From Vermamoeba vermiformis (lineage: Eukaryota), in the NCBI GenBank assembly GCA_045837725.1, contig JBEWZL010000168.1:1-64000 (forward strand): 64,000 nt of DNA, given 5' to 3'. Position 1 is the stretch's first letter; each line of letters starts with the position of its first letter. Shown here in pieces: positions 2,463 through 50,424 of this stretch. The notes under the pieces are model-generated. The model was not told the origin of the DNA. It made no database searches and saw only the letters and a program-made list of their open reading frames with translations. A program made the position numbers and the translations under genes.

Positions 2463-3731
2463 TTAATCAAGTTCTGTGGACTCGTCAAGAACTGAGTGCG
2501 GACAGCCGTTTTTAACTGCATACTCCAAGCATGCACGAGCACCAGGCCCACATGTTGAGAATGAAGATGAAGACTCGCGTGCTTTCTTTGTAGTCATCTC
2601 GTCCCAAGGGCAACCGTGTTCGTGTGCATATTTAAGGCAGGCTAATTGACCACGCATTGCTGCTGCAGAGCATACTTCAGCGTTCCATTCGCATCCGTTT
2701 TCATGCGCGTACTTCAAGCACTCAAGACTGCCTGAATCAGCTGCCTTCACGCAAGTCATGTAGTCCCATGGAACGCCGCTCTCGTGCAGGTACTTGAGAC
2801 AGCTGAGCGAGCCTCCCATAGCAGCTCCAAGACAAGTGTCAGCGTCACAAGGATAGCCGCGCTCACGCACGAATTTCAAGCATTCTAAGTGGCCTCGACG
2901 AGCCATTTCGTACGTCAGCGAATAGCCCAATATTCCAGCGAGTGTGAGATTGATTTTGAGGCCTTGTTTGTATCCGTAAGCCAAGCAGTCCAAGTGCCCA
3001 CCTTCGCCAGCTCTGTCAAGGACACTGGCCTCCCAAGGGCACCTGTTCTCGTGTGCGTACTTCAAGCACTCGAGGGAGCCATACTCTGCGGCCAAATCTG
3101 GTGTGGCGCTGTCCCATGGGCAACCATGTTCATGCGCGTACTTAAGGCACGCGAGGGAGCGTCCCGCAGCAGCTTTCGCACAGGTTTCTTTATCCCATTC
3201 GACGCCAGTCTCGTGTAGGTACTGAAGACATTCGAGCGAGCCTCGTTGTGCTGCTGAGTATGTAGCGACACGACCAAGTTTCAACCCGATCTGCACGGCA
3301 AATTTGTAGAACTGAATATCGCCGTACTGTTGAATCTGCGCTTGCAAGAGGTCGAGGTTGACTGGACAACCATTGTCGAAGAGATATTTGAATGTTTCGA
3401 ATTGACACGCTTGCAGTGCTGCTGTGATTGTGTGCACGCTCCACTTGCATCCAAACTCGTGCGCGTATTTTAAGCAGGATAAATAACCTTTCCTTGCATA
3501 ATAGCCGCATACATGCTGGTCTCTATTGTAATCGATGAAGCTTGCCAGCCTTGCATTCCTCCGAAGATAATCCAAGAGAAGTGGTTGTGCGATCTCGTTA
3601 TGCGCTTTTGATACCAACGTCAAAAAATACAGTTTAAAAGGCGTTGCCTTGCTAATATAAAATCTGTTCTTATCATGAGTGTGCACCAGCGCATTGATTA
3701 TCTCGCGCCAGATATCTTGCGGTAAATCCAT
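2463..3731 (-). CDS. F-box-like N-terminus plus ankyrin-like repeats of the 'LECLKYAHENGCPWD' type
   Basis: Intronless ~422 aa. N-terminal MDLPQDIWREII, then about 10 repeats of G(S/H)LxCLKYAHExGCPWD. Confidence 0.85.
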   Translation of the reverse strand: MDLPQDIWREIINALVHTHDKNRFYISKATPFKLYFLTLVSKAHNEIAQPLLLDYLRRNARLASFIDYNRDQHVCGYYARKGYLSCLKYAHEFGCKWSVHTITAALQACQFETFKYLFDNGCPVNLDLLQAQIQQYGDIQFYKFAVQIGLKLGRVATYSAAQRGSLECLQYLHETGVEWDKETCAKAAAGRSLACLKYAHEHGCPWDSATPDLAAEYGSLECLKYAHENRCPWEASVLDRAGEGGHLDCLAYGYKQGLKINLTLAGILGYSLTYEMARRGHLECLKFVRERGYPCDADTCLGAAMGGSLSCLKYLHESGVPWDYMTCVKAADSGSLECLKYAHENGCEWNAEVCSAAAMRGQLACLKYAHEHGCPWDEMTTKKARESSSSFSTCGPGARACLEYAVKNGCPHSVLDESTELD

Positions 3732-4105
3732 CAATTTTTAATCTACTCCAACAAAGCTCTTTTGAAGCTAAATTAATAAATATTAATTCAGTGTATTTTC
3801 TAAATATTTCCTATTTTAAGCAAATGGTTGTGGTAAGACGAATAATAGGATTCGCTGCGTGACATACCTGTTATTGCTAATTGTTCTTACCACCAACCCG
3901 ATATGTCCGCCACGTTTAGCAGCACAATTATTGTATTTGCTTCAAATTAAAGCTGTGACAAATAGCGACGCGAAAAGTTTGATTTGTGGGACGAAAAGGA
4001 CACAAGGTTCCAGAACCAATAATGTTAGCGCAACCAAATGTTTATTTCCATCGATATTGCGCGAACGTGCGTGTATTATAAACAAAATTTAATCAGTTAG
4101 TGCAG

Positions 4106-47992: not shown

Positions 47993-50424
47993 CTACGGCT
48001 CAGGAATGTCGTCAAAGTTTAGCATCACGTTCTCAAACCGCGGGGCCTTCTTAGCACTTGCAGCTTTCTTCTTCACGGGCTCTTTTGGCGGTGAAGGAGT
48101 TGCGCGCAGGGTTGTACGAGATTGTTTCGCGGGTGAGGCAATCGAAACACCTTTCTTCGCAGGTGCCATGGTGAGCTGAGGTGTCGAGGGTGTCACAGGA
48201 AAAGACGCTGCTTGAGGAAGGCTTGGCAAGGTCGGCTTTTGGATCACTATTGGCGCGATCTTAACGGCCTCGTTAATGACCTCATGCATCGAAGACTTGA
48301 GTCCAAACACGTCCAAATCACCTCGTGGGATCTATCAAAACAATTAGGCGCGAAGACAAAAAGTAGAGAAATTTGTAAGAAAAAAAAGCGGTGATTGAGT
48401 CACTGGAAGAATACTACATCGGAAGCGGTGCTTCGAATGCATGCCCCGATGCATCTCGCATGCCCTAATAGACGCTCTACCAATTGAGCTAGACCTCCTA
48501 GGGATTGGAGATCCCGGGTTTCGATCCCGGTACCTTCTATCTTGCAGAAAGGACACGCGAAGTTATTTCCTCCCTCAGACATTGGAGCACCGTAAAATTC
48601 ACAACCAAAGAATTCCGAGACTCACGGAGTCTGACTCAAACGCTCATTCGTACCTGCTTTAGCTCTTTGCGCACCTTCTCTAATAACTGTGGATCGAGGT
48701 TGTCATTCACAGCGGACAGCGACTGTGGCAACAATTGCTCTTGTGACACCAATGCCTACGCGCAAGATTAGAGTAATTGGTTAGTATTACTCGAGTCAAA
48801 CGTGCCTTCATCAGAGAGAGTGCTGCTGTTGCGATCAGGAATCAAGGCAAAGTGCGTTTGTACAACATTCGCCGAACGTAGCTCGAAGTTGTAATGAGAA
48901 CTGACCAACATGAAGCTCTCCTATCAAAGCGATTAGCTAATTGATGTGACGCCAGTGAGGAGCACGTACCTCATCGCTGAGTATATTCACTAGGGCTTCT
49001 AATTCCTCCGAGCCGTCTCGCGCAGTTAGCACGAATGACTGATAGAAATGTCAATTTCGAAGTTGTTTATGATGCTTCAGTACCATTCCGTGGAGCAGAT
49101 CTTCACTCAGAGAGTTCAATGGGCATATCTGTTTGATGGTCATTGTTGGATCACTGTTCGTCTTGGCGAGCAGATCAGTTTGTGAGCACGGCAATGTTAT
49201 CTTGCCGAGCCTAATTCCTCGCGTAATGTCTTCTTCATCAAGCGTGGACTTGAGAATAGGACACGTCTTCTTGTCATTAGCACTCGAAGTGTCTGCCTTG
49301 CTACCCAAAGATGCCTGATGGCACGAGCAGATCTGAGCGTCATTAAGTAATTGGTAAATGAATGCTAAATACTATACTTACTGCAACAGGTTCGATCATG
49401 AGCGAAGACACTACTCTCGGTCTAGCTTTCAGCCGCCACGATTGAGAACCAAACCCGTGTAGAGTGAAACACGATCTCCTCTTTGAGACAATACTCCTCG
49501 ACGCGCTCTTTGAAGTACCGCTCGAAAGATGCAGCATCTAATATTTGAACAGTTACGGCATGGTATTTAAACGATATTTGAGTACCAGTCCCGATCCGGT
49601 GCAATCTGCAGTTTGGAAATTCTCGTAGTGCAACGGCCCAGTTCGCCAATGGAATGCTGACCTCTGTGAACTGTCTCTCATCGGGGCATATCTCCAACGA
49701 GTTGATGTTGACAAAGTCCACGAGCACTTGTTGTTGTTTGAGCTTCTACAAAGGTATAGGGTTAGCGCTGATCTCGGATCCTATATTCTCTTAGAACTTA
49801 CATCTAGAGATGATATTACGTCAGGAGATTGTGAAGGGCACTTTGTTGAAAGCCAAGCTAGCGTTCCGACAACTTTCATCTTTTGGGACGCCTTCTCGAT
49901 CAGCTTCGAAACGTGCCTAAGCAGATCGACCTCTTTTTCAAATTAACACAATTAGAACAAAGTCACTATGTCATTAATTACGAATCGGATCTGAAATAAG
50001 CGTATTTTAACGTACCTATACTAGCAGAGGCCTCTCCTTGTTCGACTTTGATAGCATCGATTGCTTTGTGTACCGCGTGGATATCGAACCTCTTCGGTTG
50101 CAGAAGGACCTATTGATATTTTGTTAGAGTCGTAGAATTGCTTAAAATAATGAATATTGAAGAAATAAGTTTAAAATAATTGTTGAATGAGGCGAGAAGT
50201 ACGACCGCTACCTGAAGCTTCTGGTGCACCAGGATGACTGCCAATAGGTTGTAGCCCTTAGTCTCTTCGGACACTATCGCGATAGAGTTGACATAAGTCT
50301 TCAGCGCGGCTTTAATATTGTCTAGGATCATCTGATGAAGCTCCTTCTGATCTGCAGTCAGATGTCGCATATCGACCGCGACGATCTCGAGAAAGGACCC
50401 TAGTTCGTTAGTTGATGCTTCCAT
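47993..50424 (-). CDS. Multi-exon hypothetical protein, weakly M1AP (meiosis 1 arrest protein)-like; host of the intronic ncRNA
   Basis: Consistent GT-AG exon chain. The C-terminal run IKQICPLNSLSEDLLHG...THFALIP...ALVSQEQLLP...LEKVRKELKQ recalls M1AP from memory only. Confidence 0.4.
48380..48387 (-). terminator. Possible Pol III oligo-T terminator
   Basis: T8 on the minus strand right after the last paired segment. It could also be part of the intron pyrimidine tract. Confidence 0.45.
48468..48547 (-). tRNA. Circularly permuted tRNA(-like) core: 3' half, 7-nt linker, 5' half. Anticodon ambiguous (GCA/Cys by numbering; body Ala-like)
   Basis: Minus strand reads CTGCAAG-ATAGA-AGGTA-CCGGG-ATCGAAA-CCCGG-GATCTCC-A, then ATCCCTA, then GGAGGTC-TA-GCTC-AATTGGTA-GAGC-G-TCTAT. 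Acceptor, D, anticodon and T stems all pair at canonical spacing. Confidence 0.8.

What the first reader, a model, noticed from the sequence alone, without database searches (positions are those of the whole stretch)
48456..48560. Circularly permuted tRNA gene (3' half before 5' half) clamped by a leader-trailer helix
Seen: on the minus strand a complete tRNA 3' half (48547-48506) precedes a 7-nt linker and a complete 5' half (48498-48468). The halves pair with each other (GGAGGTC/GATCTCC, TCTAT/ATAGA). The flanks form an 11-bp helix with two G-U pairs (48560-48550 with 48466-48456) stacked on the anticodon stem. Known: permuted tRNA genes occur in Cyanidioschyzon, some green/chlorarachniophyte algae and Thermofilum, and mature by BHB cleavage and circularisation. 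Inference: this looks like a different, non-algal lineage. The junction is not a canonical 37/38 BHB, because the whole anticodon loop (TTCTGCAA) is a one-sided bulge. Processing, if any, would be atypical. Identity is mixed: GCA (Cys) by numbering, an Ala/iMet-type A54 T-loop, and A3-U70 rather than G3-U70.
Basis: partly seen in the sequence, partly recalled or inferred. Interest (0 to 1): 0.92.

Follow-up and report, generated by a model that had tools for sequence, protein, structure and literature searches.

The report
Back-to-front tRNA-like fold in an intron
A perfectly formed but back-to-front alanine-tRNA-like structure, clamped by a 12-base-pair helix, sits in an unusually long intron of a microbial eukaryote's gene; it is real and odd, but it lacks what a working tRNA gene needs and a close relative does without it.

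Summary
On the minus strand, 48561-48455 folds exactly as described: T-arm, 7-bp acceptor stem closed by a 7-nt loop, D-arm, 5-bp anticodon stem and a flush 12-bp leader-trailer helix. It is far beyond chance. Of 42,614 swapped constructs from across the window, only the two at this locus give an ARAGORN tRNA. The clamp energy is reached by 5 of 18,252 equally spaced window pairs.

The reading as a working permuted tRNA gene is not supported:
- No bulge-helix-bulge motif sits at the junction.
- The junction (31/32 or 32/33) matches none of the five known positions.
- The identity is incoherent: Ala-type body, A3-U70, A73, GCA by numbering.
- It lies in the sense strand of a 322-nt spliceosomal intron whose neighbours are 45-83 nt.
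- A close relative or allele in a water metagenome lacks the 277 nt that carry it.

Expression could not be tested. The architecture equals bacterial YrlA and permuted pre-tRNAs, but membership of either fails.

My best reading (0.5) is a young, dispensable tRNA-Ala-derived insert transcribed passively within the intron. A functional intronic tRNA mimic (0.2) is not excluded.

The parts
48332..48653 (-). Host intron: 322 nt, phase 0, GUACGA...UUGAUAG, the last intron of a minus-strand gene spanning about 50424-47993.
   Evidence: The sequence shows the splice sites. The relative's transcript-derived protein P0121 reads ...NELKQ|VPRGDLDV... straight across the junction. Other introns of the gene are 45-83 nt.
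48550..48561 (-). Leader strand of the clamp helix (UUCGCGUGUCCU).
   Evidence: It pairs with 48466-48455 in the minimum-energy and centroid folds. The duplex energy of -19.5 kcal/mol is reached by 5 of 18,252 window pairs.
48542..48549 (-). One-sided 8-nt bulge UUCUGCAA, the anticodon-loop-like letters. With G48541, CUGCAAG reads as C32 U33 GCA A37 G38.
48506..48541 (-). tRNA 3' half: G38, anticodon-stem 3' strand AUAGA (48540-36), variable AGGUA (48535-31), T-arm CCGGG AUCGAAA CCCGG (48530-14), acceptor 3' strand GAUCUCC (48513-07) and discriminator A (48506).
   Evidence: The 3' half matches 29 of 35 letters of a tRNA-Ala(GGC) from locus L005.
48499..48505 (-). 7-nt linker AUCCCUA closing the acceptor stem into a hairpin.
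   Evidence: acceptor pairs 7 of 7 across the linker.
48467..48498 (-). tRNA 5' half: acceptor 5' strand GGAGGUC (48498-92), U8 A9, D-arm GCUC AAUUGGUA GAGC (48489-74), G26 (48473), anticodon-stem 5' strand UCUAU (48472-68) and U48467.
48455..48466 (-). Trailer strand of the clamp helix (AGGGCAUGCGAG). U48460 is C in metagenome X3, which turns the G48556-U48460 pair into G-C.
   Evidence: The variant comes, table 3: one contig at depth 3.5, which may be an error.
48415..48453 (-). Second, weaker hairpin just downstream. It holds a second copy of GGGCAUGC (48445-38) that could pair with the leader instead of the trailer.
   Evidence: 75-nt stretch, z -1.78; 8 of 200 shuffles as good; sequence.
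48380..48387 (-). Run of eight T, 67 nt behind the clamp. It could act as a Pol III stop or as part of the intron's pyrimidine-rich 3' region.
   Evidence: Sequence only; not tested.
48361..48637 (-). 277-nt part of the intron, holding the whole element, that one contig of metagenome X3 replaces with 31 other letters. That leaves an intron of about 77 nt.
   Evidence: tables 5, 5c and 8 (record 2: depth 3.1, shorter side 48 nt).
48549..48598 (-). Leader plus 37 nt upstream. One other X3 contig matches it at 88% (44 of 50) but has different flanks.
   Evidence: tables 7 and 8 (record 5: 294 nt, depth 5.6).

Best explanation
This is a young, dispensable insert derived from tRNA-Ala, not a decoding tRNA gene.

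Shown:
- A pristine tRNA body in the order T-arm, closed acceptor stem, D-arm.
- Its anticodon stem runs on into a 12-bp leader-trailer helix, with the anticodon-loop letters left as a one-sided bulge.
- It lies in the sense strand of the last intron of a protein-coding gene.
- That intron is 4-7 times longer than its neighbours.
- A near relative or allele lacks the element-bearing stretch.

Inferred:
- It is transcribed only as part of the host pre-mRNA and folds into an L-shaped tRNA mimic.
- Its 7-bp acceptor stem with A73 makes the linker a likely target of RNase P and RNase Z. They would nick the excised intron into two base-paired pieces, which are then degraded.
- It cannot be circularised into a tRNA because there is no BHB.
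- It cannot be charged as Ala (no G3:U70) or as Cys (no U73).
- It most likely arose from a tRNA-Ala dimer or a circular or dimeric tRNA transcript that fixed the 'inner' alternative fold. This is the scenario proposed for permuted tRNA genes and for YrlA.
- Its compact fold may be what lets an intron of this length still be spliced.
For: - Fold and controls.
- Ala-type body: all 12 tRNA-Ala among the 132 tRNAs of the fetched loci rank in the top 18 for similarity, the best at 54 of 66 letters. That set is biased towards this D-arm because of how it was fetched.
- The structure belongs to the RNA of the host-gene strand: z -4.08 against -1.36 on the other strand. All three non-Watson-Crick pairs of the clamp are G-U on this strand.
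- Intron context: (sequence); the spliced junction in the relative's protein P0121.
- The rest of the intron is unstructured (z +0.90 upstream, -0.46 downstream).
- No BHB is stacked on the body.
- The junction is unlike all 34 listed permuted tRNA genes.
- Presence/absence: X3 record 2 joins 48360 to 48638.
- A second, diverged copy of the leader exists (X3 record 5). By my eye alone, its next 30 letters align to the loop and stem but lack an intact T-arm.
- Only one copy lies in the 64-kb window.
- The origin scenarios are in print: Soma 2014, part 1 of section 10, and passages of the YrlA structure preprint.
Against: - The body shows no decay at all: every stem is paired and U8, A14, G18G19 and U55C56 are present. 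The 12-bp clamp has no ready neutral origin.
- Neither flank shows significant similarity to the tRNA unit or to real tRNA-Ala genes, so the dimer origin is not demonstrated.
- The one variant seen in the clamp (48460) strengthens a pair.
- No target-site duplication, terminal repeat or A-tail marks an insertion mechanism.
- The absence in the relative could equally be a deletion there.
- Nothing is known about expression or processing.
Confidence: 0.5

Rival explanations
1. It is a functional intron-hosted tRNA mimic. The excised intron is trimmed back to the clamp, leaving a stable RNA of about 107 nt with the architecture of bacterial YrlA and of permuted pre-tRNAs (closed acceptor stem, anticodon stem made by the two ends). 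The RNA binds tRNA-recognising proteins, or RNase P/Z opens it into a two-piece CCA-tailed RNA.
For: - An intact L-shape core and a clamp far beyond chance.
- Strand-specific G-U pairs.
- The 48460 change gives G-C.
- A3-U70 would prevent charging by AlaRS (recalled rule).
- Mycobacterium smegmatis YrlA, which has a 7-bp acceptor stem, is cut by RNase P and receives CCA (passages of PMC4201824).
Against: - It is absent from a close relative or allele.
- Only one copy lies in the window.
- The second leader copy seems to lack the T-arm (judged by eye).
- No Ro60-binding motif occurs in the intron.
- The 28-bit YrlA match is no better than those at ordinary tandem tRNA junctions (21-26 bits).
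- There are no expression data.
Confidence: 0.2
2. It is a copy of a low-copy mobile or retro-copied element whose master gene, elsewhere in the genome, encodes an RNA with this permuted tRNA fold. The intron copy is a passenger.
For: - Presence/absence between close relatives.
- A second sequence shares the leader at 88% with other flanks, at higher depth (record 5).
- G-U pairs fit an RNA template.
- Imperfect 7-nt direct repeats, TGAGTCA (48638-32) and TGACTCA (48402-396), bracket a 229-nt segment (judged by eye).
Against: - No A-tail, no terminal inverted repeats and no clean target-site duplication.
- No other copy in 64 kb.
- With the B box ahead of the A box, the internal Pol III promoter of tRNA-derived SINEs would not work (rule as given in section 5 of the review).
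- Record 5 could instead be a distant orthologue.
Confidence: 0.15
3. It is a genuine circularly permuted tRNA gene, tRNA-Cys(GCA) by numbering, matured by an atypical cut-and-join at position 31/32 or 32/33 and then by RNase P/Z.
For: - Re-ordered halves give a tRNA in ARAGORN.
- The 7-nt linker is within the known range of 1-74 nt.
- A bulge lies on the leader strand where the 3' splice-site bulge of a BHB would be.
- A run of eight T lies downstream.
- Cys(GCA) is permuted in three prasinophyte algae (Table 1 of the review).
Against: - There is no second bulge and no 4-bp central helix.
- The junction position is unknown among the 34 listed genes.
- A73 instead of U73, and an Ala-type body with A3-U70.
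- It sits inside a spliceosomal intron.
- It is dispensable in a relative.
- The T-run is 67 nt away.
Confidence: 0.07
4. It is an assembly artefact (two ordinary tandem tRNA genes collapsed) or a chance resemblance.
For: Ordinary tandem tRNA pairs with spacers of -1 to 17 nt are common in metagenomes (16 of 16 pattern matches). No metagenome contig bridges the linker by 31 nt on both sides.
Against: - Independent X3 contigs show non-tRNA sequence ahead of the 3' half and behind the 5' half.
- Acceptor pairing across the junction is 7 of 7 here, against at most 5 of 7 in all 21 tandem junctions fetched from three collections.
- The chance controls argue against coincidence.
Confidence: 0.03

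Closest known systems
Circularly permuted tRNA genes of Cyanidioschyzon merolae, Ostreococcus, Micromonas, the Bigelowiella natans nucleomorph and Thermofilum pendens (Soma 2014 review, PMC3978253; abstract, sections 4, 5 and part 1 of 10 read)
   Same: The 3' half lies ahead of the 5' half. A short intervening sequence closes the acceptor stem (7 nt here; 1-74 nt known). The leader and trailer pair with each other. No CCA is encoded. The consensus tRNA nucleotides are present.
   Different: - No BHB.
- The junction is at 31/32 or 32/33, with the whole anticodon loop on one side, rather than at 15/16, 20/21, 37/38, 50/51 or 59/60.
- The identity is incoherent.
- It lies inside a spliceosomal intron on the sense strand.
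- It is dispensable in a relative.
- Expression is unknown.
Bacterial YrlA (Y RNA-like A; Rfam RF02553; passages of PMC4201824 and of bioRxiv 10.1101/312249 read)
   Same: The architecture matches: T-arm, acceptor-like stem closed by a loop, D-arm, and an 'anticodon' stem made by pairing the two ends, interrupted by a kink or bulge. A 7-bp acceptor stem, as in the RNase P-sensitive M. smegmatis YrlA.
   Different: - It occurs in a eukaryote, in an intron.
- It scores 28 bits against a gathering score of 69, and ordinary tandem tRNA junctions score 21-26.
- No GNCGAAN0-1G or GGUCCGA motif is present.
- No Ro60 gene is known nearby.
Dimeric (tandem) pre-tRNA transcripts able to adopt a permuted fold (Tocchini-Valentini 2012, known to me only as cited in section 10 of the review) and natural tRNA dicistrons such as tRNA-Ala(UGC)>tRNA-Ala(AGC) in locus L015
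   Same: [quoted passage not shown]
   Different: Here the outer halves are not recognisable. The two inner halves also match each other perfectly: 7 of 7 and 5 of 5 pairs, against at most 5 of 7 acceptor pairs at 21 natural junctions.
tRNA-like modules cut out of Pol II transcripts by RNase P and RNase Z (mascRNA of MALAT1; Rfam RF01684; recalled)
   Same: A tRNA-like fold embedded in a Pol II transcript, probably visible to tRNA-end-processing enzymes.
   Different: mascRNA is in normal order with an open acceptor stem. No RF01684 match was found here.

Membership tests
Circularly permuted tRNA gene | 3' half upstream of 5' half, joined by a short intervening sequence at the acceptor stem | tested here: met
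   48547-48506, a 7-nt linker, then 48498-48468.
Circularly permuted tRNA gene | Re-ordered halves give a canonical cloverleaf with the consensus tRNA nucleotides | tested here: met
   ARAGORN calls a tRNA in 5 of 5 re-ordered variants. U8, A14, G18G19, U55C56 and A58 can be read. tRNAscan-SE and Infernal could not be run on a re-ordered sequence.
Circularly permuted tRNA gene | BHB (bulge-helix-bulge) motif formed by leader and trailer at the junction | tested here: not met
   The fold has an 8-nt bulge on one strand only and an unbroken 12-bp helix. In the script enumeration, none of the top-listed relaxed BHB candidates (43 in all) is stacked on the anticodon stem.
Circularly permuted tRNA gene | Junction at a described position (15/16, 20/21, 37/38, 50/51 or 59/60) | tested here: not met
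   The junction would be 31/32 or 32/33, compared with Table 1 of PMC3978253.
Circularly permuted tRNA gene | Identity elements coherent with the anticodon, so that the product can be charged | tested here: not met
   GCA by numbering with A73 and an Ala-type body that has A3-U70. The rules G3:U70 for Ala and U73 for Cys are recalled, not tested.
Circularly permuted tRNA gene | [quoted passage not shown] | tested here: inconclusive
   AAUUUUA lies about 30 nt upstream. The run of eight T is 67 nt downstream. The locus lies in a Pol II intron.
Circularly permuted tRNA gene | Mature tRNA and circular intermediate detectable; the gene is needed for a full decoding set | not testable with these tools
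   No genome is held. RNA runs X14 and X16 laid only 1 and 2 partial reads on the 841-nt stretch, exons included.
YrlA / bacterial Y RNA-like (RF02553) | tRNA-like module: T-arm, closed acceptor-like stem, D-arm, with the ends paired | tested here: met
   (model positions 23-86 aligned).
YrlA / bacterial Y RNA-like (RF02553) | Rfam gathering score (69 bits) | tested here: not met
   28 bits. Seven control matches of 21-26 bits occur at or near ordinary tandem tRNAs in 4 loci.
YrlA / bacterial Y RNA-like (RF02553) | Ro60-binding motif GNCGAAN0-1G (or the metazoan GGUCCGA) in the 5' strand of the stem | tested here: not met
   None of the 130 GNCGAA matches in the window falls in 48332-48653. 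The only GGUCCGA-like match there (1 mismatch) is the 5' splice site itself.
YrlA / bacterial Y RNA-like (RF02553) | Encoded next to a Ro60 (TROVE) gene | not tested
   Only 18 of the window's reading frames were scanned against Pfam, and none was TROVE. No genome is held.
tRNA-derived SINE / retro-copy | tRNA-related head in normal order (A box before B box), tail, target-site duplication, many copies | tested here: not met
   The order is permuted. There is no A-tail or terminal repeat. There is one copy in 64 kb. One partial look-alike was seen in metagenome X3.
Two-piece (permuted) tmRNA | ARAGORN tmRNA call; G3:U70; degenerate D-arm; tag reading frame | tested here: not met
   ARAGORN found no tmRNA. 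The element has A3-U70 and a full D-arm.

The most novel reading that the evidence does not exclude
The element is an expressed, intron-hosted, circularly permuted tRNA mimic. That would make it a eukaryotic counterpart of the bacterial YrlA architecture, or a permuted tRNA gene caught at birth from a tRNA-Ala dimer. The spliced-out intron would supply the precursor, the clamp would protect it, and RNase P and RNase Z would open the acceptor loop to give a two-piece, CCA-tailed tRNA-like RNA. This would occur in a protist lineage where nothing of the kind has been described.
Probability: 0.2. Interest if true: 0.8.

Novelty: new variant of a known kind. Interest (0 to 1): 0.5.

Why it matters
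Permuted tRNA genes are listed from only six algae and one archaeon. How they arise (tandem dimer, or reverse-copied circular or dimeric RNA) is argued from models, not from intermediates (review).

A pristine permuted tRNA-Ala body with a ready-made clamp but without a BHB, present in one lineage and absent from its nearest relative, would be a natural intermediate or by-product of that process.

If it is expressed as a stable RNA, it would be the first tRNA mimic of YrlA-type architecture in a eukaryote. It would also be an example of a spliceosomal intron delivering such an RNA.

If it is silent, it is a curiosity that mainly warns annotators. Standard tRNA finders miss it, and a YrlA model picks it up weakly for generic reasons.

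Tried and rejected
- **Expression.** No RNA holder was listed for the stretch. I laid two RNA runs carrying the same species label (X14, X16). They gave 1 and 2 partly fitting reads on 841 nt, none on the exons, so they say nothing about expression.
- **Organism B (X9).** Its contigs covered only the exons and stopped at the intron border, so the orthologous intron was not seen.
- **Whole genome.** None is held, so the tRNA set, the copy number and a Ro60 gene could not be checked.
- **Decayed tandem array.**
  - Tandem Repeats Finder found nothing.
  - Local alignment of the flanks to the re-ordered unit was at shuffle level: 195 of 500 and 439 of 500 shuffles reached the score.
  - Flanks against 8 distinct real tRNA-Ala genes were not significant: 126, 863, 587 and 234 of 1,000.
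  - Colinear anchored alignments were not significant: 276 of 2,000 shuffles and 234 of 3,458 window segments downstream; 1,525 and 1,515 of 2,000 upstream.
  - By eye, the trailer UUAGGGCAUGCGAG resembles the loop plus 3' stem strand UUAGCAUGCG.GAG of tRNA-Ala(AGC) in the loci. This stays a lead only.
- **BHB in other registers.** Candidates exist, but none next to the body.
- **MITE or transposon reading.** There are no terminal inverted repeats or clean duplications.
- **Related elements elsewhere.**
  - One pattern (T-loop, 16-36 nt, D-arm) gave 16 matches in metagenome contigs, 4 in viral contigs and 1 in prokaryotic genomes.
  - All 21 are ordinary tandem tRNA genes with at most 5 of 7 acceptor pairs across the junction.
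  - The pattern is narrow, so diverged relatives would be missed.
- **Earlier findings of this scan.** Nothing for this genome or sequence. The word search gave only prokaryotic cases.
- **Literature.** Searches for 'permuted tRNA' (74 papers), 'circularly permuted' / 'tRNA-like' / 'spliceosomal intron', 'permuted tRNA' / pseudogene / retrotransposition, and tRNA-like / Y RNA / Ro60 / protist listed no such element in a spliceosomal intron or protist. I read listings only, apart from the papers named. Supplements were not seen.
Full report
**What is there.**

Read on the minus strand, the stretch 48561-48455 contains these parts in order:
- a leader, UUCGCGUGUCCU;
- eight unpaired letters, UUCUGCAA;
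- G plus AUAGA;
- the variable region, AGGUA;
- a T-arm, CCGGG-AUCGAAA-CCCGG;
- GAUCUCC and then A;
- the seven letters AUCCCUA;
- GGAGGUC;
- U and A;
- a D-arm, GCUC-AAUUGGUA-GAGC;
- G;
- UCUAU plus U;
- a trailer, AGGGCAUGCGAG.

RNAfold, with no guidance, returns the following as the minimum-energy structure:
- a 12-bp leader-trailer helix with three G-U pairs;
- a 6-bp 'anticodon' stem stacked on it, continuous along the trailer strand;
- a T-arm and a D-arm;
- a 7-bp acceptor stem closed by the 7-nt linker.

The energy is -44.5 kcal/mol with z -4.08, and 0 of 200 shuffles fold as well (for a slightly longer stretch). I add only a twelfth clamp pair (48561/48455) and the G48541-U48467 pair.

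**Is it more than chance?**

ARAGORN and Rfam at gathering thresholds see nothing in the window, because the order is permuted. When a script swaps the two halves by coordinates, ARAGORN calls a tRNA in all five junction variants tried: Cys(GCA), Ala(UGC) or undetermined.

The same swap applied every 3 nt on both strands gives a tRNA call in 2 of 42,614 constructs. Both are at this locus.

The leader-trailer duplex (-19.5 kcal/mol) is matched by 5 of 18,252 equally spaced segment pairs in the window and by 2 of 5,000 shuffles.

The complementary strand folds at chance level (z -1.36; 19 of 200 shuffles as good). So do the rest of the intron upstream (z +0.90) and downstream (z -0.46). The structure is therefore real, confined to these 107 nt, and a property of the RNA of the minus strand.

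**Context.**

The window is eukaryotic:
- It holds an oxysterol-binding-protein gene and others broken by short introns.
- No whole genome is held.
- Its long catalase is 91% identical to a protein of an unnamed EukProt transcriptome. The nearest named relatives are Mucoromycota fungi at 52-58%.

I cannot say whether the organism is an alga.

The element lies in the sense strand of an intron (48653-48332, 322 nt, phase 0). A 543-residue protein predicted from a 1,808-nt contig of a relative runs uninterrupted across the junction (...NELKQ|VPRGDLDV...). It maps onto the window as a gene from about 50424 to 47993. This is the last intron of that gene. The other introns of the gene are 45-83 nt, so this one is 4-7 times longer than the norm.

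**Independent DNA.**

A water-metagenome run (X3) carries near-identical contigs. One covers 48495-48640: upstream intron, leader, loop, 3' half, linker. Another covers 48334-48513: linker, 5' half, trailer, rest of the intron. Each shows non-tRNA sequence where a collapsed pair of ordinary tRNA genes would have the missing half, which contradicts the artefact alternative. Neither bridges the linker by 31 nt on both sides.

One difference falls in the clamp: U48460 to C, which turns a G-U pair into G-C. It comes from one contig at depth 3.5 and may be an error.

The same run holds a contig that joins 48360 to 48638 with 31 other letters in between. Its few differences in the flanking exon mark it as a close relative or an allele. 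In that sequence the intron is about 77 nt and the whole element is missing.

A further contig matches only 48549-48598 (44 of 50 letters), with other flanks. The 30 letters that follow the leader there can be aligned, by my eye only, to the loop and anticodon-stem strand, but not to an intact T-arm. I did not put those letters through any tool.

**Is it a tRNA gene?**

According to the review of Soma (2014; abstract, sections 4, 5 and part 1 of 10 read), permuted tRNA genes are defined by:
- the swapped halves;
- a short intervening sequence;
- a BHB motif at the leader-trailer junction, which lets the tRNA-splicing endonuclease and ligase make a circle;
- junctions at 15/16, 20/21, 37/38, 50/51 or 59/60;

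Here the first two are met and the third is not. There is one 8-nt bulge on the leader strand and an unbroken helix opposite it. An enumeration of relaxed BHBs finds none stacked on the body.

The junction would be 31/32 or 32/33, with the complete anticodon loop on one side. That matches none of the 34 listed genes.

By numbering the anticodon is GCA. However:
- the discriminator is A, whereas Cys needs U73 (recalled);
- the body is of the alanine type, with all 12 tRNA-Ala among 132 tRNAs of the fetched loci ranking in the top 18 (a biased set);
- yet it has A3-U70 where AlaRS needs G3:U70 (recalled).

A run of eight T lies 67 nt downstream. Its meaning inside an intron is open. Together with the absence from a close relative, this makes a decoding tRNA gene unlikely (0.07).

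**Comparison with YrlA.**

With relaxed thresholds, the only notable Rfam match is YrlA: 28 bits, E 6.5e-4, model positions 23-86 of 114. That region is the tRNA-like module of the bacterial Y-RNA-like family. Its architecture is the same as here: T-arm, closed acceptor stem, D-arm, ends paired (passages of the 2018 structure preprint and of Chen et al. 2014).

As a control, I searched four loci with ordinary tandem tRNA genes. Seven YrlA matches of 21-26 bits appear there, so the match reflects the order of the arms, not kinship.

The Ro60-binding motif is absent from the intron. None of the 130 GNCGAA sites in the window falls there, and the only near-match to GGUCCGA is the 5' splice site. 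The element works like a YrlA-type fold but is not a member of the family.

**Relatives elsewhere.**

One pattern (T-loop, 16-36 nt, D-arm) found 16 stretches in metagenome contigs, 4 in viral contigs and 1 in prokaryotic genomes. All 21 are ordinary tandem tRNA genes, mostly initiator-Met followed by Ala. Their acceptor pairing across the junction is at most 5 of 7, against 7 of 7 here. No second example of the arrangement was found, but the pattern is narrow.

**Origin.**

The literature offers two routes: a tandem dimer that loses its outer halves, and reverse copying of a dimeric or circular pre-tRNA. The YrlA authors propose a dimeric tRNA whose outer parts form the stem.

I tested whether the flanks are decayed outer halves. 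They are not recognisably so: every alignment test was at shuffle level. A by-eye likeness of the trailer to the anticodon loop and 3' stem strand of tRNA-Ala(AGC) genes remains a lead only.

No target-site duplication, terminal repeat or tail marks a transposition.

**Most likely reading.**

The element is a young, dispensable derivative of tRNA-Ala, carried in an intron and transcribed with it (confidence 0.5).

- Shown: the fold, the strand, the intron, the missing BHB and the presence/absence difference.
- Inferred: passive transcription; recognition of the 7-bp acceptor stem by RNase P and RNase Z (as for M. smegmatis YrlA); no charging; and a possible role of the compact fold in keeping an overlong intron spliceable.

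The perfect state of the body and the unexplained clamp keep a functional intronic tRNA mimic alive (0.2). A copy of a mobile or retro-copied family is also possible (0.15).

Expression is the open point. No RNA holder was listed, and the two RNA runs laid gave nothing even on the exons.

Noticed in passing
L001, L009, L012, L017 (also L002, L003, L014, L016): Identical or near-identical dicistrons of initiator tRNA-Met followed by tRNA-Ala(AGC), with only 1-4 nt between them. They recur in several metagenome contigs and in a contig labelled as a giant-virus MAG (L017).
   Followed up: partly
L015:335-486: tRNA-Ala(UGC) followed after about 5 nt by tRNA-Ala(AGC) in a GenBank WGS contig. This is a natural Ala-Ala dimer of the kind proposed as the starting point for permuted tRNA-like RNAs.
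   Followed up: partly
L004:913-964 and L019:4495-4540: Two tRNA-like units that abut with no spacer (computed spacer -1). ARAGORN and Rfam show further tRNAs packed directly behind them.
   Followed up: no
window:163-1881 (+): A 572-codon open frame with a DDE_1 (pogo/Tc1-type) transposase domain (E 4.7e-14), so DNA transposons are present in this genome.
   Followed up: no
window:18008-19576 (-): A large-subunit ('long') catalase with a DJ-1/PfpI-like C-terminal domain. It is 91% identical to an unnamed EukProt transcriptome protein; the next best is 67%, and named fungi and bacteria reach 49-58%.
   Followed up: partly
window:48438-48465 (-): GGGCAUGC occurs twice, 20 nt apart (48465-58 and 48445-38). 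The second copy could pair with the leader in place of the trailer and form an alternative, BHB-like but misplaced structure.
   Followed up: partly
window:48396-48402 and 48632-48638 (-): Imperfect 7-nt direct repeats, TGACTCA and TGAGTCA, bracket the 229-nt segment that roughly matches what the metagenome relative lacks. They could be a target-site duplication or the microhomology of a deletion.
   Followed up: partly
window:39850-40632 (-) and 2463-3737 (-): Open frames with an EGF domain plus an attractin-type beta-propeller, and with ankyrin repeats. No function was found for the host gene of the element (no Pfam match in the three of its exon frames scanned).
   Followed up: no
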